Origin: Neolecta irregularis DAH-3 | Lineage: Eukaryota | DNA length: 64,000 nucleotides | NCBI GenBank assembly: GCA_001929475.1 | Contig: LXFE01003012.1 | Coordinates: forward strand, 1-64,000 | Reading direction: 5' to 3' | Shown: piece by piece, positions 21,051 through 33,993 of the stretch | Numbering within the stretch: the first letter of the stretch is position 1 | Layout of the letters: each line of letters begins with the position of its first letter | Translations under genes and position numbers: made by a program | Notes under the pieces: generated by a model | The model's input: only the letters and a program-made list of their open reading frames with translations | Database searches by the model: none | What the model was told of the DNA's origin: nothing

Positions 21051-24006
21051 TCAATTAAAAGCCGCAGCATAAGCAAGTGACCAAGTCAATGTCATCCCAC
21101 CATCAAGATAGGCGCTGTTATATGCGAGACCTGTAAAAAACGAATATGCTGCAGAAGGGTTGAAGATGCTGTAATCGAGATACTGTGTCTAATGAGTATG
21201 CTTTCTGTGGATCAGAACATACCAAAATACCTCTCCATCCATCAGGAATGGAACCAATCAACGATTGCAATTTTCCAGACCACTCCGCTCCTATGAACGC
21301 TGCATTTCGCATGTATGCAGAGATAGAGGTCGTTGGAAGCATATGAATACCTTCAATGCACTCCTCCCTGCTTGAAAACCATGTGGTATGGTCGATCTTA
21401 TTCTCAAACAAGATACCGCTAACGTAATTGGGAACGAAATTTGAGGGCTCGATGGTGTTGCCCGCAGAATAAAGCATGTAAGAATTCATCGACCTCTTCT
21501 GAATCGCAAGCATGAGATTTCCTCGAGCCTCCATATTTGTATCGCCGATAGCATTACCCCAGAGCTTCATTCCATAATAAAAGTTATAATCTAGGAGTAT
21601 TAGTGTGCGATGTCGCGGGGGTATTGATCCCTTCAGAAGACGATTCTTCGTTTCTTCCATCTGGAACTGCAGTAATACCAGCGGACCAAGAATGTCCCGC
21701 GAACCAGTCGAAAGACCGAAACTGGGGGAAATAACTATCTGCTGTAGACGGATTCGCGACGTCTCGAATTAAGGTGTTAACCCAATTCTTGTTAGCCGTC
21801 GCCCATGAGTTGTCAAGAAAGCCAATGATGGCGGCGGTGTGAACAATGTAGCCGTAATGGAAATGATGGTCACTAGATATAAATAGATGATGAGCAAGAT
21901 TTATACTTGTAAACAGCGTTTCCAAAGTCCTGGAATGATCCGTCTGTCAACCCAGCTGTGCTGACAACTCCTTTCCACACCGTGTCATACGCGAGTGGAT
22001 TGATTTCTTGATTGTTGACGAAACGGCTTATCGCGGATTTGAGACTGTTCAGACAGGAGTTCATCAATGCATGGTTGACAATAATTGAATTGGCAGTGAG
22101 ACAGACATACGCAAATTTCTGTAGGATTTTACCTGCAAAATAGATACTGTTAAGATTCGATTGAGCGGACATATCCAAGGCAGCTTCGATGTTGGCGGCC
22201 GAAGTAATTTTTTGTATCTCTGATGCCGACCAAGAAGGTGATCTACCGGATGCTGAGTATGGTAAAAATCCAACATTCCAGGGAAGATTCTTCTCCGTGA
22301 ACGTGAGCATACTGCCTCCACAGCCAGTCATCATGCCACGTGTCTGACTCGCAAGTTTCAACGAGGTAAGCGACCCGCGAGACAATGATGCCACAAGATG
22401 AGGAAGCAAATATGTCAGGAGCGTTGCACCAGCTCGACCACCGGCTGTACTATACTGAAAGCTGTACGATCCACTGCTTCCCGAAACCGAACCAGCCAGG
22501 GTAACTCTAGTTGCATAGATTCCACTATAGCTATCGAAAGCACCCGGCGAACTGCCTGATGGGACTTTAGCTATCTGAATATAACCGGTAAATCTCGACG
22601 AAGCAACAAGATTTGCGTTATCAACGATCTGAAGGTTGAATGCAGACTGAGAGACTTGTAGATTCGGATAAACGTACATAACCCAAGTTTTACCATCTAA
22701 AAGTAGAATTTGGAATTTCAGTGAATTTCCAGGTCCTGAACTGCGACTCACAGTCGATACCTGGACTTGCGTATAAATCTTGGGAGTTGCAGAATAGTAA
22801 TTGAATGTAATAAAAGCCATGCCTTGAACAATTGAACACGTCATCCGTGAGAGAGAAATTCGGACATTCATATTGATAGACATAGTGGTAGGAGTATCGA
22901 CGTACATAGCCGTGCCAGAACTGAATTCGCTTGCACCGAAACGAAACGAAACGACCCCAAGTGGAGACCCATAATATCCGGCAATGTTGCCTGTAATTCG
23001 ACCATAATACTTGTCAGGTAAGTGGACTTGAAGCAAGATGAAAATCATACGTATTGATTGGTATCATAATGTTCTATATTGATACCAGCAGGAGAACTGT
23101 TTGTTTGCGGGGTCCACCAGAGGGCGTAAGGAAGCGAGAAAACGGGATTGGTACCATCTCCAGTAAGGAGGTTTTCATAGAATTTATTTGTGCCAATTGG
23201 CTTCGATATGTCAGCACCACTCAAACCTAGTGGTTTGTAAAAGTTTTGCTTCGAGGGAAACTGGTGGGAGTTCGGGGCGCCTTGAGAAATTGGGGTGAAT
23301 ATATTCGAACTGCCAATTGCTGCCAATCCAATCGGAGATGGGGCCGAGTTCGCCAAAGTTTGAGTTTCCGTGTTAACTGATGCGGAGATGGCGAGGACAC
23401 TTGTTGCCGTTACAGTGACCACTGGAGCCGCGGTCTCGACACCGGCGGTAGGAAGTTTTGTATTAATTGTTGATCTGACCAGCACTGATGATGGGGAAGC
23501 CAAGCTTTGACGAATTATACTACTAGAAAGTATAGTTTCATGCACCGAAACCTTCGGTGTGACAAGAGAGGTTGCAGTTTTTGGAACTGCTGCCGTTATA
23601 GGTAATTTGCTGCCAGAAACACGCGTAAGTACTTGGTTCTGAGATGCAATAAGCGAAGAGATATCCTGCCCTTCGGATCCGCGCTTCACAAGATTTTGAG
23701 GATCAAGATGTTGATTTAGATCCTCATAGTGATGCCGGGCCGGAGGTGGATATATCCTATCGTTCGGGTAGGGGGTAGGGCAATCTGTAGAAGAACCAAT
23801 GACCACATTGGAGCAGAGTAGTACTACGAGTACAAGCAGGTGCCTTCAGATTCAAATATCAGCGTTGTTGCTATGTCATCATAAGACTCGAATTCATACC
23901 TCTGAAACCAGAGCAACTGAAGATTGATAAATGAGTTAGAAATTGAAATTGAAATTGGGCGACAGAAAGCCAATTTAGAACCAGGGTGGAGTTGACCGTG
24001 CAACAT
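21051..24006 (-). CDS. GH81 endo-1,3-beta-glucanase with hydrophobic N-terminal segment and Ser/Thr-rich linker (probably secreted)
   Basis: [49 protein letters not shown] (after splicing), [11 protein letters not shown]-terminus approximate. Confidence 0.88.
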
Positions 24007-24919
24007 CCTTGGTGAGAATAGAAGAAAGATAAGCAAGGACCAGCCGCAAAGAATGAAAACATTAGATGCATCGGAATTTTATATGAATTCGCCGGGCTTG
24101 GCAGGCGTTGTGAACATATCGCATGGGTTGAAATGCATCATTCCGCAGCCTAAAAAGGCAGTATTGAGTATCCACAATCTATGCCGATATCCGAATTTTG
24201 CCACACCAAGACCCATCTTCCAGCTCGGTTGTTTTCTTAGAGCTTTCACCAGTAATATTGGAGCACCAAGATCAAGAATTTTAAAAAACATTGCCAGAAT
24301 CAGTTCGATCCACTTTTTTGTTGTGCTTGGACAGAAACGGTCACGTATTGCCACCAATAGTCATCGACGGTGTCAGAGCCGAGCCGAGCCGAGCTTGTAA
24401 TTAAAGTTGGTTGAAGTGGATTCAAATTAAGACATCATGGTCGATTCGATTAATTGCCACAAGAATAGAGAGTGGGATCAAGCCTGATATTACTTCTGAT
24501 GACCTAAAAAATTGCAAGGATACAATCGAACCTGCTCATAACGAATGTGGCATTCAAAGGTGTTGAATTCGTTAAAAGGCGGATTCGTTTTATCATCATA
24601 GAAAAATACCTCATACTAATTAATTTTGGAAACCAGTTGGGTTCGTTATAAGGAGGAACTCGCTGTACGGAGGTTCCTTATAGCCAGGTTCGAATGTAGT
24701 CACAGAGCCTGAAAACCAATGAGCACGTGAAAGTGAAAAAAATGGGTTTGTATGTCATAATAAATCCCAAATTTCAGTAAGCATGACATATTCGCGTTCG
24801 AACAAAGTGTATAACACTCCTTACAGGCTAATCAGAGAAAATTCAAAATGCCATGCAGCCACAACGAATTCCAAATGCGTTAAAATCACCAACTCACCGA
24901 TATCAATATGGTAGGTATG

Positions 24920-27527
24920 CTAAGCAAGTGAAGCTGAATAGGCAAGCGACCAAGTAAGAGACATTCCATCATCCAAGAAAGACAAGTTGAATGCTCTGTT
25001 TGCGAAGAAGTCATACGCAGCAGCCGGTTCTGCAATAGCGTAGTCAAGATACTACATTTGTCAAGAAGATCAAAAAAGTTATAACACACGAGAATTCCCT
25101 TCCATCCATCGGCAACTGAAGATATCAGCGATGCCACTTTATCGTTCCATTCATGTCGGACGAATTCCGCGCTCCGTATGTATCCCGAAATACCAGTCGT
25201 AGGTAACATATGAATCCCTAATATGCATTGCTCGAGACCCGAAAAATAGGTAGTATAATTCAATTTATTTTCAAGGAGGATTCCCGAGACATAATTCATC
25301 ACGAAAGACTTGGGTTCAATCTTATTTGTTGATCCCAGCAGCATATAACTATTCATTGAACGTTTCTGAATAGCGAGCATGAGATTGGCCCGAGCTTCCA
25401 TGACCTCATCTCCAGTAACATGCCCCCAAAGTTTCATCCCATAGTAAAAGTTGTAGTCTAGAAATTAACCCATTCGGCCACAATAAAGAACGCACCTTCG
25501 GAAGATGATTCCTCATCTTTTCCATCACCTCGAGGTGTAATACCAGCAGCCCACGAATGACCCGCAAACCAGTCAAATGATCGAAATTGCGGGAAATGAA
25601 TGTCAGATGTTGATGGGTTTGCAACATCTCGAATCAGATTGTTGACGTAATCCTTGTTATCAGATATCCAGGTTGGGTCGAGATGTCCAATAATGGCTGC
25701 TGTATGAACGAAATAACCATAGTGAAAATGATGGTCACTATAATGTCAAGAAAAAACACTCACTTGGAAAGGCACTTGAACTGAGAATTTCCAAAATCTT
25801 GTATGGTGCCATCTTTGATACCAGCTGAACTTGAGATGCCCTTCCAAGTAATATCGTAAACCAGTGGATGCTGCTGCACGTTTTGAGAAAATCTTGCAAA
25901 GGCTGCCTTAAGATTTGCCAAAAGTTTGTCAGTTAGATCTTTGTTGTTCATAATGCTGCTGACTACGAGACAAACTAATGCATATTTTTGCAAAACTTTC
26001 CCGGAAAAGTACATGCTTTGAAGATTGGATTCGTTTACAACGTCTCTTGCGGCTTCTTTTGCCGCCGCAGCCGCGATACTCTGCAGTTGCAGGTCCGAAT
26101 AACAAGCAAAAGGCCTCTTGGGGGAATATGGCATGAAGCCTACATAAACTGGAAGATCCGTTTCGGTAAAGGTAAGTCTGTTGCCAAAAAAGGCTGTCAT
26201 CGTTCCGCGTACTGTACTTACGAGCTGGAGAGGAGTCTTCAATCCCTCCGTGATTGATGCCACATGGTGAGGAAACAGGTATGTCAAAACTGGAGCGCCT
26301 CGAAGACTACAGACGACGTAATTGAAACTATAGGATCCCGAAGAGCCTCCGACGCAACCACTCAGAGTCACCCCTGTTGGATAGGATCCTGCATGAAAAT
26401 CATAGACTGCTTGTTCGACACATTCGGTGTTCAGGAAATGACCGGTATGGGTGATGGGTATTTTCGCAATCTGGATAACACCAGAGAATTCACATGACGC
26501 CTCTATAAACGAGTTATTGATGATATGGAGGTTGAAATCTATCCGGAAAGTTCCTGCATTTGGAAAGATATAAACAGCCCAAACTTTTGAATCATTCAAA
26601 TGGACAAGGTATTTGAAAGATTCCGGAGCGGAGTGTACTCTAGTAAGGGAATGAATGTGAAATGTCGAGTAGAATTGAGGCACGAGGTTTGAGTAAATGC
26701 CCGTAACAAAAGCCATTCCTTGAACGAGCGGTAGCTTAAGACTGCCGCAGTTTGCGTCGATGTTCATATTGATAGATTGTTGGGACGGCGAATCCAGAAT
26801 AAGATGACAATGATTTGCTGCGAATTCTCGGGCACTGAATCGAAGAGATGTCAAACCAACAGGACTGAAAAAGTATTCGGCATTCGCACTGGAGTTTCCT
26901 TTACCAAAGACCTCTATATTAACATGTTGAAAGCGGAAGCTGTGGTACCTTTTGGTTCTCATCGATATGTGCAACGTCAACACCAGGAGCGGTTCCATTC
27001 CCTCCTGGATGCCACCAAAGGCTGTATGGATTCGTCCAAATGGGTGTAGACTGATTAGTCGAGAGTAGATTCCCATAGAATTTGTTGGTCTGAATTGGCA
27101 GGTGACACTGTGATCCGTCAAGTCCGCGTGGTTTTATGAAATTTTCTTGGTGTGGAATTTGCGGGAGGGAGTTATTGATGGCGATAGGTAGGAAAATATC
27201 ATGGACAAATGCTGAGTTGATTCCCGACATCGCAGGTATTGAAAATGCATTCGAGTTGCCAAAACCTACAGCTTGAAATATTGTGTCCAATTGCATAGGG
27301 ATTGTTATATTGGGGGATCTAGTTGAATTATGCAAAGTAGAATGAGGACAATTGAATTTCAAATGCGAGAGATCTCCTAGTGCAGAAAGGTTGGATCGAA
27401 CTGATTCAATTGAATCTCTAGGGTCTATTTTAAGAGTCGCAGCTATAGCCTTTGTTGGATCGTCTAGCGGTTTTGCAGCCAACAAAGGAAGGCTTCGTGC
27501 AGATGAATGAACTAGACTGCGAGACAT
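24920..27527 (-). CDS. GH81 endo-1,3-beta-glucanase, tandem paralogue without evident signal peptide
   Basis: [44 protein letters not shown]; 4 introns at the same positions as its neighbour. Confidence 0.88.
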
Positions 27528-28249
27528 GTTACTTTGACTATGCCTCCTTTTCGAAACTGAAAATCAGAAGAGGAAGGATTTCTTAGTGAATTACTGGCAG
27601 AATGATTGTGGTGCAGATGTGTAGGGGAAGCTAGTATATATAGACAGCTGAAGCCAATTTATGACAGTGAATGAAAAAAGCTGGAGGTTGAATTAGCTCT
27701 CCAAAAGAATGTTGGGATAGAGTAGGAAAAATCATTCGGCTTCAATGTTCAGTATGACCTAAGAACAACTAAGGGGTGGTGCGATCCTGTGACCAATCGA
27801 AAGGGCGAAGATATGTAAACGTGAAAAACGCACCTTGAAAGATTCTATCAAATGAAAAGTCGCGAACACATTTTATCCAAATGGTTGGTTAGTAGATTTG
27901 AGGAGCTCAGGTTTATCATCCGAATTTATGTTATTATGAAAATGCTGTATAATCGAGATCAATAGATTGTATCTAATGGATAATTTTGGGAGATATTTAT
28001 CAAGGGCTTTAATTGTAGTCCGACCCAGGTCAGTCTTTGACATAACGAAGGAGCGATAGTTTTGAATAAAACAATTGCAATAATTATCTCTGTAAGCAAA
28101 TGATTTTCCATGCATATCTATTTGTGATATTATACTGGCGCTAATGTGATAATCTCCCGATTGTTTCTGCTTGATCTGGAGGTTGAGTTTATGCCACCTT
28201 ACCCATGATCCCTGCCTTTTCTGTATTTTCTAGTTAAGATTAGGGTGAG

Positions 28250-30357
28250 ATGGGAAAAGACAAAAAGACGGCAAAAGCCGAGAAAAAGGCACGGACTGCG
28301 GAAAAGGTAACAGTCGAACAAATGGAATGAAGAATATCCATCTGACTACATAAGGTAGACCCAGCGAAAGGAATCGAAAAAGACTGCCAAGACGAAGAAA
28401 AAATCTAAATTTGCAGACCATGATGTCGATATCGATGTTGTACTTCAAGATTATGCTCGTCAGGTGTGTTTGTACGCTAGATGAGACCAAGGACTAATTT
28501 GAAAAGCAAGAAAAATTCAATGAGATTACAGAAATAGTACACGACGGACCACCATCAAGACGAGTCAACGCAACTCTGGTGAATAATCCTTTTAAGAATG
28601 AATTACTTCTTTTCGGGGGAGAATTATACGATGGCAAAACTGCGACTTTTTATAATGGTTCGTGTCTCACCTGATATATTTAAACCTTTGATTTATTCAG
28701 CTATAATATCGACAAATCAGAATGGCGCAAAATCACCTCTGGGAACAGTCCCTTGCCTCGTTCAGCTCACCAACTCGTCTCTCATTCTTCCGGAATTCTT
28801 TTTCTGTTTGGCGGAGAATTCTCGTCGCCTAAACAAAAAACCTTTTATCATTATTCCGATTTTTGGTCGCTAGATCCAACGACTCGTACATGGACTCGGA
28901 TCACTACCTCTAAGAAGAATCCAAGTCCATCCGCTAGATCTGGCCACCGAATGGTATCCTGGAAGAACTTTATCATTTTATTCGGTGGATTTCAAGACAC
29001 AGGTGCTCATACCAATTATCTCGATGATTTATGGGTTCGAAGTTCCTAGTCTCATGACTAACGTCACAAGGTCTTTGATGTTCACGAATATACATGGACA
29101 AAGATCGAGTTTGCACCTCATACCCAAAGACCGGAAGCTCGAAGTGGTTTCAGCCTTCTTCCTGCGGCAGACGGAGCAGTTCTGATCGGTGGGTACTCAC
29201 GGATGAAAGAAGGCAAGAATTCGCGTGGTATTGTACACACAGATATTTGGCTCCTTCGAATGTCATCAACACTGAAGAATATTCGGTGGGAAAAAAGACG
29301 AAAACCAGGATTTGCTCCATCGTAGGTCTGCATATAATTATATATCTGCTAATTTTAGACCTCGTGTCGGATATCAGATGGTTTATCATCGAGGGCGAGG
29401 CTTGGCTTTTGGTGGTGTTTACGATTCTCTTGATGAGGAGGAGAATTTAGAAAGCACTTTCTTCAACGACCTTTACGCATATCAAACAGAGATGCACAGA
29501 TGGTATGGTCTTCAACTACGCCCGCCTCGTCAACGAACAAGAAAGATTGTCGAACACAGACGACAACGTGGAAAAGTCGCTGATGATGAGTTATTGCAAC
29601 TTCAGAAAGCCATTGAGCAATCGACGGGCTTAGATGACGATGACCTGACGGTTGATGTGAGTCAAGGTAATACTCTGCATGAAGAAATCAAATTGTCCAT
29701 GGAACTTCCCCACGAACGCTTCAACACAATGCTTGCCGTATCGAATGATGTGTTGTATATATATGGAGGTTCCTTTGAAAGTTCCCGCGAGTATACACTC
29801 GATTCGTTCCATGCCATTGATCTCGTAAAATTGGATGGTGTAAGAACTATTTGGGAAACTCCCATAGAAGAAGAGCGATGGGAAGGAAGTGCAAGTGAGA
29901 CTGAATCAGAAGACGATGAGGAAGACGATGAGGAAGAAGATGAGGAAGAAGAAGCTCTCGAGTCGGGGCACGTCCTTTCTGAAACAAGAAAAGACTCTAA
30001 ATCAACTCGAGTCGATGATCCTGGATCCAACGAACCTGTATCGACTATCGATCCTTCTCTTCCAATTCCAAAGCCATTCGAGTCACTTAAAGAGTTTTAT
30101 GACCGAACAGGTTTATCACTGCTGATTCATAGTCTAATATTCCAGCCGCAGCTTGGCTCGAGGTCGCCATGGAGAAATCCAGGTCGCGAGGCAAGGAACT
30201 TCGGAAAGACGGATTTATTCGTGCTGAGATGCACTGGTGGGATTGCCGTGAAGAAGTACGAGCATTGGAAGATAAGATGGATGAAGAAGGCGATCTTGGG
30301 ATGGGCGAAGTTGTTGAAAAGGATATCAAAACTTCGCAAATGGGCAAGAGGAGATAA
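28250..30357 (+). CDS. KEL3: Kelch-repeat protein Kel3/KLHDC4 with acidic tract, 6 introns
   Basis: LFGGE, SPLPRSAHQ, SARSGHRM, IILFGGFQD, PEARSG, HERFNTML, DE-rich tract and C-terminal KELRK. Confidence 0.9.
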
Positions 30358-30397
30358 ACAATCCGTAGTGATACATCTCGAAAAGAAGATCCAATTA

Positions 30398-30837
30398 CTA
30401 TTTTGCCGTGATCTGCTCCAGGAGATTCTGGCTCTTTTGGTCTTTGGATATAGTGCTGCCTGAAGTTGCTTTCCATAATTCGTACAACTAAAATATTAGT
30501 TCATCGGTATTATCTATAAACAACTTGGCCGATTTGCTGATCGCTCAATTTTTCGACTGCCAAAAGGTCCAACTTTGCTTCCCGCCATGATTCTCCCTCG
30601 ATCTCCTGGACATACTTCTGCAGATAAGATTCATGTATTTAATAGACTTATCTGCCATGCACTTAAAAATCTCACGACGTGACCTGGTAAAACGGTACTC
30701 TTTCTTGCTAATCTAAACTCATTTTGAATGTAAGAATCTCCCAAATGTCTCATGATCCCCGGTATGTATTTCCGGTGCGCTCTTAAAATCCGCCGATATA
30801 ATGGTATGGGGGGAAGAAGGGAGACTGGGAGGTTCAT
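30398..30837 (-). CDS. SDH7: LYR-motif succinate dehydrogenase assembly factor 3 (Sdh7/Acn9)
   Basis: LLPPIPLYRRILRAHR, LGDSYIQNEFR, FLSAWQKY, LSDQQIGQLYEL; first intron needs an AT donor. Confidence 0.88.
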
Positions 30838-30917
30838 ATTGGTTGAGGACGCGGATTGGGGCTTGTTATCCTCATCAACGAGAGTTTATGTGGTGCGAAA
30901 GAGGTATCTCTTGCTAA

Positions 30918-32141
30918 TTATTTTACTTCGTCCACGCCCCCCCATCTTCCACTTGGATCCACTCTCCCCGCACCACATTCCTCCACCTCTTCTTCAACTA
31001 GCTCCAACTCATCAGCATCCTCGCCTACTGGGTCTCCTTCGCCATCGACACCCACTACCTTCTCCATATCTTTCCCATGCCTGCCTATCGCCGTATCCTC
31101 GTCATCATACATGGCAACACTAGCACCCTCCACAGCCTCAAACTCAACGCCATCCTCCTCTTCAACATCGCCTCCTTCGTTGCCTTTTTCTAGCTCCTCC
31201 TTGCTATCATGGGCATCCAGAGCTTCAAGTCCTCTATTAGGTGCCATTGTGTCTGGATCACCTAGCACGCTGCTAAATTTAGCACTGCGAGGCTCCTTTG
31301 CCTAACACCTGCATGCCCTCGCCCACTCGCTTCCTGTCGCTCCCCTGCCCATTACCGCCCCCGCCCTCCTTGCCTGCTGCGACACCCTCATCATCCCCGG
31401 CGGCGAAAGCACTTGCAAAACCCTCCTTGCCTGTCATGCTCGCCCCCTCCGGCCCTGTAGGCTGCTGTTGCCCGCTACCCCTGTTACGCCCTTAACCCAC
31501 TACTCTGTTAAACTGCCCTGCACGGTCGCTCTGCCCTGAACCTTGCCCTGTTGTGCTTCCCTGCCTCTCTTGCCATTCCATCCATGGTGCTCCCTCCTCA
31601 ACTCCCTCACCCTCCCCTTCAGAGACTGCTGCATACCACACTACCTGTTGCTTCTCCCCAGGCTTCCCCTCTGGGGTACCTGCACTGGCATGATCCTAAG
31701 CACCTCACGATTGTCCAGCACAAGTGGTGGACTGGCCACCTTGTGCTGCTGCTCACCACCCTGCACTACTAAGTCACCATCCTTAAGGATGGGAATATGC
31801 TGAGTACTGCAAACATCACACTATGGATAAGAAAGGGGAATGGAGAAGGACACAATTGCTAGAAAGTATATTATATAAAATTCTTTATGAACATATCAAT
31901 CCTTAGAGTCTGGGAATAATTGCTATTCTACGATCTGCTACTACAAAGTCTAGCTAGTATCTCAATGTGTAATACTTTGGCATCCAGGAGAGCTGTTATT
32001 GAGGTGCATCACACCATGGTATTCACATGTTATACCTGGACTGGCCCATGGACCAGTCCATGGGCCTGGCCTGACCCTCAGAAAAGTCCAAGGGCCAGGC
32101 CTTTAAAAACGTCCATGGACTTTGGTCCATCCGCAACACTG
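30918..32141. mobile_element. Degenerate DNA-transposon relic (GC-rich, CpG-depleted distal half) ending in …CAACACTG
   Basis: Composition differs from the flanks; broken acidic/Gly-rich minus-strand frames; terminal ~120 bp resembles 44770-44863; left boundary uncertain. Confidence 0.55.
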
Positions 32142-32277
32142 GGTGTACCAAACGCGCCTGTTAGTACGTAGTATCATGATATTTCGTCAAATATATCGCT
32201 TACAAAACTGTACTTTAAAATCACGCCATTAAAATTCCACCAAGCCACATTGCGCCAATCGCCAACAATCATCCCAT

Positions 32278-33993
32278 ATGACAACTCTCGAACATTTCCT
32301 TAGTCTACAGAAAACCCTTCCGTCAACAGAAAAAGATACACCGGAATCGATTGAGTTTGAAATCATGCGGGCCCTTTTGAAATTTCTAAAGGGCGCACAT
32401 AGGACCTTTATTCTGTCAATGCCGATGGCGACGAATAAACTGCTAGGAAAGTATTTTATCTGACAAAATATAATCAGCCGACTATCAGGTTGATTAAAGC
32501 AGAGGGTCCATTAATCTATAGCCCCAAAAACATCTCGAGGTTGGAAGATATTTTACAATACCTCGATGAGACCTATGATTTTATCTACAAGCAAGGAAAA
32601 TGCAAAAACACCGGAGAATTAGTTTGGGTCACGCCTGTGGCAATAGAAGTTGCATGGGTTACCGAAGGGCATACTGATTCAACCTTTGCTCTCATTGATG
32701 TACAGATTCGGCACTCAAGAAGACATTACGGCTCTCAAAAAACGTAAAATTACCAGCGATCATACTTCTCACTCTTCAATTGCTCAAGACCTCCAGACTC
32801 TCCTGTCTTACAAGTCTGTCTTCGATATACAGCACTCACGGCACACTGAAATTGTGTCATTATTACAGAGTCCAACTGCACGAGTGAAGTTATTGTGCCA
32901 AGCCAGAAATACCGAGAAGACAATCAGACCTTTCTGTACAGCGAATAGTAAACGAGAATGTCGAATTAGAGACTGTGGAAAGATTCATTTTATACCGATT
33001 ATTAAACCTCATACGGAAACTGGTTTGGGTGATTGTAGCTATTTAAATACATGTCATAAGATGGATATCTGCAAGTATCTGCATTATGTTTTGGATGTTC
33101 CGATTGAGCAGGTATTTCTTTTTCTTATAGGGAACTATGCTGGCAGAGTCTAGCAAGCAAAAAGAGTCAAGACTAAGGATATTCAATCCGCTATTTGGTA
33201 TCAAGAACCGTTTGGAGCCCAGGCTCCGGTATGAAAACACACCCTGTTTGAGGCATTCTCTGATTCTGAAAAAGTTACCGCCTCAATGCATCAAGTGTGA
33301 TGTAGGACACAAGTTGTAACAGATAATCTGACTTGCTAGGTTCGCAAGCTTGATTTTTCAATCTTGGGCAAGTTTTCGATTGTAATGGCTGACCCGGCTT
33401 GGGATATTCATATGTCACTGCCGTATGGAACAGTCACAGACGACGAAATGACTGCTCTTCCTGTCGGCTGCCTCCAAGATGAAGGGGTGCTGATGCTTTG
33501 GGTTACTAATCGATGCATGGAACTTGCTCGAGAATGCATGTCCGCATGGGGCTACAAACGAGTTGATGAACTTGTTTGGGTCAAAATCAATCAGCTTCAA
33601 AGGTTGATTCGAACTGGGAGGACGGGTCATTGGTTGAATCATTCTAAAGAACATCTCCTCATTGGACTCAAGGGAAATCCAAGATGGCTAGAGCCGTATG
33701 TCGATGTTGATGTCGTTGTATCCGAAGTCCGAGAAACAAGTCGCAAGCCAGATGAAGTCTACGATATTGCTGAACGTTTAGCAGGAAAACACACGAGAAA
33801 ACTAGGTACACGACCTTTTTAGCATGTCTATGTACTTACTGGATTAGAGATATTTGGACGGGAACATAACATGCGAGAGGGCTGGACAACTTTGGGAAAC
33901 CAACTCCCAGGAACCATTCTCCATGAATCCGAATTGCGAAGGAAATATCTTGAGCGTTACCCAGAAGCTGCAAATACAATTATCAACAAGTAA
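32278..33993 (+). CDS. IME4: mRNA m6A methyltransferase catalytic subunit (Ime4/METTL3, MT-A70)
   Basis: CCCH fingers ([21 protein letters not shown]), [45 protein letters not shown]. Confidence 0.95.

What the first reader, a model, noticed from the sequence alone, without database searches (positions are those of the whole stretch)
30618..30651. AT-AG intron (ATAAGT donor) in SDHAF3
On the minus strand: GCA TGG CAG|ataagt…atctgcag|AAG TAT restores FLSAWQKY. The donor is a perfect GTAAGT except for A at +1 and lacks the U12 ATATCCTT consensus. Unspliced reading stops 7 codons later, and the in-phase GC donor upstream would delete the conserved Trp. Either +1A is tolerated, or A-to-I editing creates the donor, which would make splicing editing-dependent.
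Basis: partly seen in the sequence, partly recalled or inferred. Interest (0 to 1): 0.75.

Follow-up and report, generated by a model that had tools for sequence, protein, structure and literature searches.

The report
Spliced AT-AG micro-intron in fungal SDHAF3
A 34-base intron in a fungal mitochondrial assembly-factor gene starts with AT instead of the near-universal GT yet is cut out exactly in a transcript assembly, making it a real but rare type of intron, not an error.

Summary
On the minus strand, 30651..30618 is a 34-nt segment, ATAAGT...CTGCAG, inside an SDHAF3/ACN9 (LYR-family) gene. A public run whose contigs lack six introns in three genes removes exactly these 34 nt and joins ...FLSAWQ to KYVQ.... 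A 5-nt repeat (GCAGA) allows six placements of the cut. Only AT..AG ends in AG.

The spliced product matches the ungapped W-(Q/K)-x-Y motif in 26 of 30 aligned homologues. In soil metagenome contigs, 21 loci (17 distinct introns of 32-36 nt) have an intron at the same phase-0 site, and all start with GTA. The window's intron is therefore an old, position-conserved micro-intron with G-to-A at +1.

It has the length, 3' CAG and branch distance of five RNA-verified GT-AG neighbours, and it does not match the U12 consensus. The best reading is a U2-type AT-AG intron, tolerated with help from full U1 complementarity at -3..-1 and +2..+6.

A-to-I editing is untested and its sequence context is unfavourable. 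A perfect 9-bp helix pairs the donor with the branch region, and only in this intron. AT-AG introns are already catalogued, so this is a new member of a known rare kind.

The parts
30652..30837 (-). SDHAF3/ACN9 exon 1 coding part (ATG at 30837; 62 aa ending FLSAWQ)
   Evidence: Translation. Pfam PF13233 Complex1_LYR_2 at 6.4e-12. Covered without a break by spliced contig X2 record 8 up to 30941.
30618..30651 (-). 34-nt AT-AG intron (ATAAGT...CTGCAG), phase 0
   Evidence: Skipped in X2 record 8. Present with A at 30651 in DNA contig X1 record 2. Sequence.
30646..30651 (-). 5' splice site ATAAGT, preceded by exon CAG (30654-30652)
   Evidence: It matches the GTAAGT consensus at +2..+6. The five RNA-verified GT-AG neighbours match 0-1 of the 4 positions +3..+6.
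30624..30628 (-). Branch-site-like CTTAT, with the candidate branch A at 30625 (-8 from the 3' end)
   Evidence: Inferred from position. The five neighbouring introns have CTAA(C/T/A) with the A at -7 to -10. The branch point has not been mapped.
30647..30655 (-). 5' arm GCAGATAAG of a perfect 9-bp helix; it spans the 5' splice junction
   Evidence: 17 of 5000 dinucleotide shuffles reach a 9-bp perfect helix.
30620..30628 (-). 3' arm CTTATCTGC of the helix; it covers the branch-like motif and the pyrimidine stretch before CAG
   Evidence: +1 A pairs with the T at 30624.
30525..30617 (-). Exon 2 (KYVQEIEGESWREAKLDLLAVEKLSDQQIGQ)
   Evidence: It forms a 92-nt side of both joints in X2 record 8. 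Aligned with homologues.
30488..30524 (-). Intron 2: 37 nt, GTTGTT...ACTAATATTTTAG, GT-AG
   Evidence: Skipped in X2 record 8, shown as CT..AC on the + strand. Sequence.
30397..30487 (-). Exon 3 coding part with stop TAG (LYELWKA...ITAK*)
   Evidence: Alignment.
30670..30675 (-). Unused in-frame canonical donor GTGAGA (would give a 58-nt GT-AG intron deleting VRFLSAWQ)
   Evidence: Sequence. X2 record 8 runs unbroken across it.

Best explanation
This is a genuine spliceosomal, major-type (U2-type) intron with AT-AG ends in the SDHAF3/ACN9 gene of an unidentified fungus that has very short introns. It descends from an old GT-AG micro-intron at a conserved phase-0 site (after the Gln of F-L-x-x-W-Q) by a G-to-A change at +1.

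Shown: the 34 nt are removed exactly in a transcript-derived contig. The product is the conserved protein. Orthologous introns elsewhere start with GT.

Inferred: the unedited +1A donor is recognised because every other donor position (CAG|xTAAGT) is complementary to the 5' end of U1 (recalled) and fits the U6 contacts, and because these short introns appear to rely mainly on length, a branch site close to the 3' end, and CAG. Both catalytic steps then go through despite the A(+1)/G(-1) combination.

The perfect 9-bp helix between the donor and the branch region may hold the two ends together. It may also be the trace of a quasi-palindrome-templated mutation that created the +1A. This last point is speculation.
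For: 1. Splicing. X2 record 8 skips 30617-30650 with a 5-nt ambiguity. It has 0 other letters, and it also lacks intron 2 of this gene and three GT..AG introns (36, 33, 35 nt) of the convergent gene. Record 9 lacks a 42-nt GT..AG intron. Of the six possible cut placements (GC..CT, CA..TG, AG..GC, GA..CA, AT..AG, TA..GA; read), only AT..AG ends in AG.
2. No intron-retaining form. X2 holds 0.74 of the sampled words.
3. Product. 26 of 30 aligned homologues have W-(Q/K)-x-Y ungapped across the junction, and the window gives WQKY. Homologues are named succinate dehydrogenase assembly factor 3 / ACN9.
4. Ancestry. 49 of the 80 kept metagenome loci have a match that reaches residue 62. Of these, 21 have an intron at the identical site after TGGCAG (17 distinct sequences, 32-36 nt), and all begin GTA and end AG. 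23 have no intron there, 1 ends at the contig end, and 4 have non-homologous ends.
5. Architecture. Length 34 nt versus 33-42 nt for the five RNA-verified GT-AG neighbours. CAG at the 3' end. Candidate branch A at -8 versus -7 to -10 in the neighbours.
6. Compensation. The donor matches AAGT at +3..+6 (4 of 4). The five neighbours match 0-1 of 4, and 0 of 17 distinct orthologous introns have AAGT there.
7. Literature. In human reporter assays, CAG|ATAAGTAT-type sites are used, with the ranking GC > TT > AT > GA > GG > CT, and AT-AG 'hybrid' introns are judged more likely U2-type (PMC6280755, passages). 21 AT-AG introns (0.0228% by the paper's table) are listed in Ganoderma lingzhi (PMC11590231, table passage).
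8. DNA. X1 record 2 shows A at 30651 at word depth 551.
Against: X2 is not on record as RNA (listed 'DNA?'). That it is cDNA-derived is my inference from six skipped introns. X2 also carries a different coded organism label from X1, so a strain with G at +1 could have given the RNA. Against that, there are 0 other letters over 2367 + 866 nt of laid contig.

X1 may be the source of the window, so it does not independently confirm the A. Contigs drop rare variants and cannot give the spliced/unspliced ratio, so efficiency is unknown.

In other fungi the same donor AUAAGU blocks completion of splicing. In Aspergillus telomerase RNA it triggers spliceosomal cleavage only. In S. pombe, +1A inhibited splicing of the tif212 intron (PMC4299874, passages and section 7). 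In budding yeast, G1A blocks the second step (recalled, not read here). Full splicing of AUAAGU...CAG is therefore not what the fungal literature predicts.

The branch-like motif CTTAT is weaker than the CTAAY of all five neighbours. The helix would have to be opened for U1 and U2 to bind.
Confidence: 0.7

Rival explanations
1. Genotype difference or hidden allele. The RNA came from nuclei or a strain with a normal GT donor. The A in the assembly is a recent, possibly disabling, mutation or a minor or major allele of the sequenced DNA sample.
For: X1 and X2 carry different coded organism labels. X1 may be the window's own source. Contigs drop rare variants (tool note). All 21 orthologous introns have G at +1. 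SDHAF3 is probably dispensable in culture (recalled from yeast ACN9/SDH7 work).
Against: There are 0 other letters between X2 contigs and the window over 2367 + 866 nt, UTRs included, so the samples are the same or nearly the same genotype. X1 record 2 runs through the site unbranched. Single-copy depth (421) flanks the gene, with no sign of a second copy. The otherwise perfect donor, in a genome whose five verified donors are degenerate, looks like long-term compensation.
Confidence: 0.1
2. Editing-dependent splicing. The +1 A is deaminated to inosine in the pre-mRNA, which makes a functional GU-like donor.
For: A-to-I editing of AT-AG to GT-AG is reported for three human introns (PMC4176328, passages). 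The +1 A lies in a perfect 9-bp duplex, and duplex RNA is what ADAR-type enzymes need (recalled).
Against: The -1 base is G, the least favoured neighbour for ADARs and for the fungal editing described in Sordariomycetes, which prefers U at -1 and hairpin loops (recalled). 9 bp is far shorter than usual ADAR substrates (recalled). Best matches are fungal, and fungi lack ADARs (recalled). This was not tested directly: the spliced product has lost the base, and no raw reads were available.
Confidence: 0.05
3. Structure-dependent or non-standard excision. The 9-bp helix that joins the two ends, not normal 5' splice site recognition, defines the cut sites. This would resemble the non-conventional introns of euglenids, whose ends pair and whose borders are ambiguous (recalled).
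For: There is a perfect 9-bp helix across the donor and branch region. 17 of 5000 shuffles reach 9 bp. The MFE z-score is -2.2, against a mean of +0.23 for 17 orthologous GT introns. A 5-nt direct repeat makes the border ambiguous.
Against: The intron has an exact xTAAGT donor, a pyrimidine run plus CAG, and a branch-like A at the usual distance. Its ancestors at the same site are ordinary GT-AG introns without such a helix. The helix finding is post hoc, and nine comparable hairpins occur in the 64 kb. The repeat follows from the palindrome TCTGCAGA.
Confidence: 0.06
4. A minor-spliceosome (U12-type) intron with non-canonical AT-AG ends.
For: AT-AG is the commonest non-canonical end pair among U12-type introns: 20 of 66 in five species (PMC1557818, Table 2 passage). 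Some early-diverging fungi keep the minor spliceosome (PMC2846911, search listing only).
Against: The donor ATAAGTCT matches the recalled U12 consensus ATATCCTT at only 4 of 8 positions, while U12-type donors are highly conserved (PMC3584512, passage). The orthologous introns are GTA-type with varied donors. The architecture equals that of neighbouring U2-type introns. Whether minor snRNAs exist could not be checked, because no genome is held.
Confidence: 0.03
5. Reverse-transcriptase template switching between the two GCAGA repeats made a false junction in the cDNA.
For: A 5-nt direct repeat flanks the skipped segment. A hairpin brings the repeats together. Both features favour such artefacts (recalled).
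Against: The spliced form is the only assembled form. It restores the conserved reading frame exactly. The segment sits at a site where 21 related loci have a real intron of the same size.
Confidence: 0.02

Closest known systems
U2-type 'hybrid' AT-AG introns (rare non-canonical class; human examples, and 21 listed in the fungus Ganoderma lingzhi)
   Same: AT at the 5' end and AG at the 3' end. The donor is otherwise fully complementary to U1 (CAG|ATAAGT), like the reporter sites CAG|NNAAGTAT that are used in human cells (PMC6280755). The class has been catalogued in a fungus (PMC11590231).
   Different: This one sits in a 34-nt micro-intron. [quoted passage not shown] It also carries a 9-bp helix between the donor and branch region. 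Which spliceosome acts has not been shown experimentally.
AUAAGU 5' splice site of Aspergillus telomerase RNA (spliceosomal cleavage, first step only)
   Same: The same hexamer, AUAAGU, with A at +1, in a fungus, recognised by the spliceosome (PMC4299874).
   Different: There the +1A prevents exon ligation, and the released 5' exon is the product. Here the exons are ligated into an mRNA that encodes the conserved protein.
U12-type introns with AT-AG ends
   Same: The same terminal dinucleotides (PMC1557818).
   Different: No U12-type donor or branch consensus. The length and layout match the neighbouring U2-type introns.
Editing-created splice sites (AT-AG read as GT-AG after A-to-I editing, human)
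   Same: An AT donor that would become canonical if the A were deaminated (PMC4176328).
   Different: No evidence of editing is available here. The neighbour base and duplex length are unfavourable. The host is fungal by best matches.
Non-conventional introns of euglenids (recalled, not read here)
   Same: The ends can pair, and the borders are ambiguous because of a short direct repeat.
   Different: This intron has clear spliceosomal signals (xTAAGT, CAG). Its orthologues are plain GT-AG introns.

Membership tests
SDHAF3 / ACN9 (LYR-motif protein, Pfam Complex1_LYR_2) | Match to the family profile above the curated cut-off | tested here: met
   Exon 1 alone scores PF13233 at 46.4 bits against a cut-off of 22.3, E 6.4e-12.
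SDHAF3 / ACN9 (LYR-motif protein, Pfam Complex1_LYR_2) | Collinear with proteins named SDHAF3/ACN9, including the L-Y-R and F-L-x-x-W-x-x-Y stretches | tested here: met
   396 library proteins with E <= 0.001, best 65% identity. Alignment. Names.
Spliceosomal intron (removed from mRNA) | Exact removal seen in transcript-derived sequence | tested here: met
   X2 record 8 skips 34 nt. That X2 is cDNA-derived is inferred from six skipped introns.
Spliceosomal intron (removed from mRNA) | Lariat with a 2'-5' bond between the branch A and the +1 nucleotide | not testable with these tools
   Needs raw reads or lariat sequencing.
U2-type AT-AG (hybrid) intron | AT at the 5' end and AG at the 3' end | tested here: met
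   It is the only one of the six possible cut placements that ends in AG.
U2-type AT-AG (hybrid) intron | Donor complementary to U1 apart from +1; layout like the host's U2-type introns | tested here: met
   CAG|xTAAGT. Length 34 nt versus 33-42 nt, and branch-like A at -8 versus -7 to -10 in five verified neighbours.
U2-type AT-AG (hybrid) intron | Dependence on U1/U2/U4/U6 snRNPs | not testable with these tools
   Experimental.
U12-type intron | Conserved donor (A/G)TATCCTT (consensus recalled) and branch TCCTTAAC 10-15 nt from the 3' end | tested here: not met
   The donor matches 4 of 8 positions and the best branch alignment 5 of 8 (by eye). High conservation of the U12 donor is stated in PMC3584512.
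U12-type intron | Host has U11/U12/U4atac/U6atac | not testable with these tools
   No genome is held. There are 0 Rfam matches in the 64-kb window.
Editing-dependent splice site | A>G mismatch at +1 in unspliced RNA against matched DNA | not testable with these tools
   Only contigs were available, and none retains the intron in X2.
First-step-only AUAAGU site (fungal telomerase RNA type) | 5' exon released and no exon ligation | tested here: not met
   Ligated exons are present in X2 record 8. A partial cleavage-only fraction cannot be excluded.

The most novel reading that the evidence does not exclude
The intron carries its own helper. Its 3' part (CUUAUCUGC) is a perfect complement of the mutant donor (GCAG|AUAAG), in effect a built-in U1-like strand with the compensating U opposite +1A. 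This helix would juxtapose the donor, the branch A and the 3' CAG in a 34-nt intron, and would let a +1A intron pass both catalytic steps where the same AUAAGU stops after step one in other fungi. The same quasi-palindrome may have templated the G-to-A change in the first place.
Probability: 0.12. Interest if true: 0.65.

Novelty: new member of a known kind. Interest (0 to 1): 0.4.

Why it matters
It is a natural case in which A at intron position +1 is compatible with complete splicing of a conserved gene. A at +1 normally arrests splicing, and some fungi use it to stop after the first step.

It also comes with a ready comparison set: 17 distinct orthologous GT-AG micro-introns at the same site. 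That makes a compact test system for asking what lets the spliceosome pass a +1A/AG combination: donor strength, intron shortness, or the end-to-end helix.

There is a practical point as well. Annotation pipelines that allow only GT/GC-AG would pick the in-frame GTGAGA donor and delete eight conserved residues, including the Trp.

Tried and rejected
- No RNA holder listed. The only two runs listed are marked 'DNA?', and I read X2 as cDNA-derived from its joints.
- No whole genome is held. A census of AT-AG introns and searches for minor snRNAs or deaminases were therefore impossible.
- Rfam on the window gave 0 matches.
- The search for homologous proteins with exon 1 at 'longer' lengths found nothing, so no annotated model of this gene was seen.
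- The search for homologous proteins with a ribophorin exon at 'longer' lengths gave only 41% identity to Pezizomycotina proteins. The organism stays unidentified beyond 'fungus by best matches'.
- Three heuristic scans of the window were no better than background and are not used as evidence:
  - Branch motif plus any donor dinucleotide: GT 364 found versus 438 expected.
  - ORF-restoring candidates by dinucleotide: GT 18, AT 18, TT 26.
  - ORF-restoring hexamers: ATAAGT 11 of 22, GTAAGT 7 of 20.
- There is no other copy of the 34-nt intron (up to 3 mismatches) or of its inverted repeat in the window, so no sign of a repeated element.
- Folding 141 nt around the site gave z = -0.02. Only the local helix stands out.
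- The literature search for 'AUAAGU' alone gave 39 papers; the 15 listed were unrelated.
- Searches found no report of an AT-AG intron in SDHAF3/ACN9. No search was aimed at that gene name.

Full report
**What is there.** On the minus strand the window carries a small three-exon gene:
- Exon 1: 30837..30652, 62 aa, MNLPVSLLPPIPLYRR...VVRFLSAWQ.
- Intron 1: 34 nt at 30651..30618, ATAAGTCTATTAAATACATGAATCTTATCTGCAG.
- Exon 2: 30617..30525, KYVQEIEGESWREAKLDLLAVEKLSDQQIGQ.
- Intron 2: 37 nt, GT-AG, 30524..30488.
- Exon 3: 30487..30397, ending in TAG.

Read without splicing, the frame stops in the seventh codon after WQ. Exon 1 alone matches Pfam Complex1_LYR_2 (46.4 bits against a cut-off of 22.3). 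A search of 1.84 billion representative proteins gave 396 relatives with E <= 0.001. Those that carry names are called succinate dehydrogenase assembly factor 3 or acetate non-utilizing protein 9, in ascomycetes and basidiomycetes.

**Is the segment removed from RNA?** No run on record as RNA was listed. One of the two listed runs, X2, consists of contigs that lack introns. Laid on 29000-32500, record 8 (2367 nt, 0 other letters) skips three GT..AG segments of 36, 33 and 35 nt in the convergent Kelch-repeat gene, intron 2 of this gene, and 34 nt at 30616^30651. Record 9 skips a 42-nt GT..AG segment further on. Six short intron-like segments missing from three genes on both strands, with identical flanks, is what cDNA looks like. 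That X2 is transcript-derived is my inference, not its label.

The joint has a 5-nt ambiguity, because GCAGA stands at both ends. The six possible placements give GC..CT, CA..TG, AG..GC, GA..CA, AT..AG and TA..GA. The record positions are contiguous across the joint, so nothing is inserted.

X2 runs unbroken from 30651 to 30941. The GTGAGA donor would give a 58-nt GT-AG intron that removes VRFLSAWQ.

X2 holds 0.74 of the sampled words of the gene region.

The genomic run X1 has a contig (30566-31839, depth 551) with the intron and A at 30651 and no differences. X1 may be the window's own source.

**Is the product the right one?** I aligned the three joined exons with the 30 library proteins whose match reaches residue 62. 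In 26 of the 30, W-(Q/K)-x-Y is ungapped exactly where the junction lies, and the window gives W-Q-K-Y. The match runs on through E-G-(D/E)-x-W and Q-I-G-Q-L-Y-E-L. The other four read W-Q-V and then lose similarity.

**Comparative evidence.** A scan of metagenome contigs with an alignment of exon 1 and the W-Q-V group returned 80 loci. In 49 of them the match reaches residue 62. The other 31 end earlier, mostly at residues 55-58, and I did not examine them at this site. The 49 break down as follows:

| Loci | State at the site after W-Q |
|---|---|
| 23 | Coding frame continues (x-Y-...), no intron |
| 21 | Interrupted directly after TGG CAG by a segment that starts GTA, ends AG and is followed by E-Y-C-Q-(Q/L/E)-V-E-G |
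| 1 | Contig ends there |
| 4 | Non-homologous ends |

The 21 interrupted loci hold 17 distinct intron sequences of 32-36 nt. The window's intron therefore sits at a phase-0 site shared with a group of soil and peat fungi, and has the same size and the same exon end. It is the only one with A at +1. The simplest history is a G-to-A transition in an old micro-intron.

**What kind of intron is it?** The five neighbouring introns verified by the same contigs are 33-42 nt long. Their donors are degenerate: GTTCGA, GTCTGC, GTTTAT, GTTGTT, GTGCCA. Each has a strong CTAA(C/T/A) box with the branch A at -7 to -10.

The AT-AG intron shares the length (34 nt), the CAG end and a candidate branch A at -8, within CTTAT. 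It differs in three linked ways:
- A at +1.
- A donor that is otherwise the full consensus (CAG|xTAAGT). It matches 4 of 4 positions at +3..+6, against 0-1 of 4 in the five neighbours, and none of the 17 distinct orthologues has AAGT there.
- A weaker branch box.

It does not resemble a U12-type donor: 4 of 8 positions against the recalled consensus. The high conservation of that donor is stated in PMC3584512 (passage).

I therefore read it as a major-spliceosome intron in which strong pairing of the remaining donor positions makes up for the +1A. This fits human reporter work, where CAG|ATAAGTAT-type sites are used and rank GC > TT > AT > GA > GG > CT, and where AT-AG hybrids are judged more likely U2-type (PMC6280755, abstract and passages).

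**The helix.** The donor and the branch region are perfectly complementary. GCAGATAAG (30655-30647) pairs with CTTATCTGC (30628-30620), with the +1 A opposite the T at 30624, giving -11.3 kcal/mol.

- Only 17 of 5000 dinucleotide shuffles of the 50-nt segment contain a perfect helix of 9 bp or more.
- The energy z-score is about -2.2.
- The 17 orthologous GT introns average z = +0.23, and none is below -1.1.
- Of the five neighbouring introns, one also folds end to end (z = -2.2) and four do not.

The finding is post hoc, and nine comparable hairpins occur in the 64 kb, so I treat it as a lead. It could bring the reactive groups together in a very short intron. It could instead be the footprint of a quasi-palindrome-templated G-to-A change. 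One orthologue (L064) has a similar stem with G.U at +1. The helix also explains the 5-nt border repeat, through the palindrome TCTGCAGA.

**Editing.** I could not test it here: the spliced product has lost the base, no unspliced contig exists in X2, and raw reads were not available. The context argues against it. The -1 base is G, the duplex is only 9 bp, and the host is fungal by best matches. The enzyme preferences are recalled, not read here.

**What speaks against easy tolerance.** In Aspergillus telomerase RNA the same AUAAGU donor is what stops the spliceosome after the first step. In S. pombe, +1A inhibited splicing of a test intron. The same paper calls A at position 1 'exceedingly rare among annotated introns' (PMC4299874, passages and section 7). 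A fully spliced AUAAGU...CAG intron in a fungus is therefore not trivial.

**The main rival.** The RNA could have come from a genotype with G at +1. X1 and X2 carry different coded organism labels. Against this, the contigs are identical to the window over 3.2 kb, and the compensated donor suggests a long-standing state.

**Novelty.** AT-AG introns are already catalogued. A table lists 21 in Ganoderma lingzhi, 0.0228% of its introns (PMC11590231, table passage). Twenty U12-type cases are listed in five species (PMC1557818). U2-like cases are reported in man (PMC4176328).

This is therefore a new, well-supported member of a known rare kind. It has two uncommon assets: a set of orthologous GT-AG introns at the same site, and a donor-branch helix found only in the AT form.

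**Limits.**
- The organism is not identified.
- There is no genome-wide census of non-GT donors.
- Splicing efficiency is unknown.
- The branch point is not mapped.
- Supplements of the cited papers were not opened.

Noticed in passing
window 30397-30463: The SDHAF3 coding region (minus strand, stop at 30399-30397) and the convergent Kelch-repeat gene (plus strand, frame open to the stop at 30461-30463) overlap antisense by about 67 nt. One X2 contig (record 8) runs across both genes, which fits overlapping 3' ends.
   Followed up: partly
window 29035-29070, 29326-29358, 30111-30145, 30488-30524, 31241-31282: Five RNA-verified GT-AG introns of 33-42 nt have almost no donor consensus beyond GT, but each has a strong CTAA(C/T/A) box 5-8 nt before the 3' AG. 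This is an unusual balance of signals for a fungus.
   Followed up: partly
window about 31150-32150: Summed contig word depth in run X1 rises from about 421 to as much as 8328, with many variant letters and loose ends in both runs. This points to a high-copy repeat, probably a transposon remnant, just upstream of the gene.
   Followed up: no
window 21118-23845 and 24886-27563 (minus strand): Two tandem copies of a glycoside hydrolase family 81 (endo-1,3-beta-glucanase) gene, each split over three open frames by short introns.
   Followed up: no
library proteins P0013-P0153; loci L008, L020, L023-L028 and others: Most gene calls for SDHAF3 in the protein library, and many tblastn matches in the metagenome loci, lose similarity right after N-P-x-H-(I/L)-V (query residues 55-58). 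This suggests a different, widespread intron a few codons upstream of the one studied here, read through by prokaryote-style gene callers.
   Followed up: no
window 30566-30595: The two X1 DNA contigs that cover the gene end and begin here with a 30-nt overlap. That marks a branch point in the assembly graph inside exon 2, and its cause is unknown.
   Followed up: no
window 33340-33822: An MT-A70 (m6A methyltransferase-like) domain gene lies 2.5 kb from the finding. Other neighbours include Nup159-like, Rev1, cullin, calcipressin, ribophorin I, hexokinase and an RPE65-type carotenoid oxygenase.
   Followed up: no
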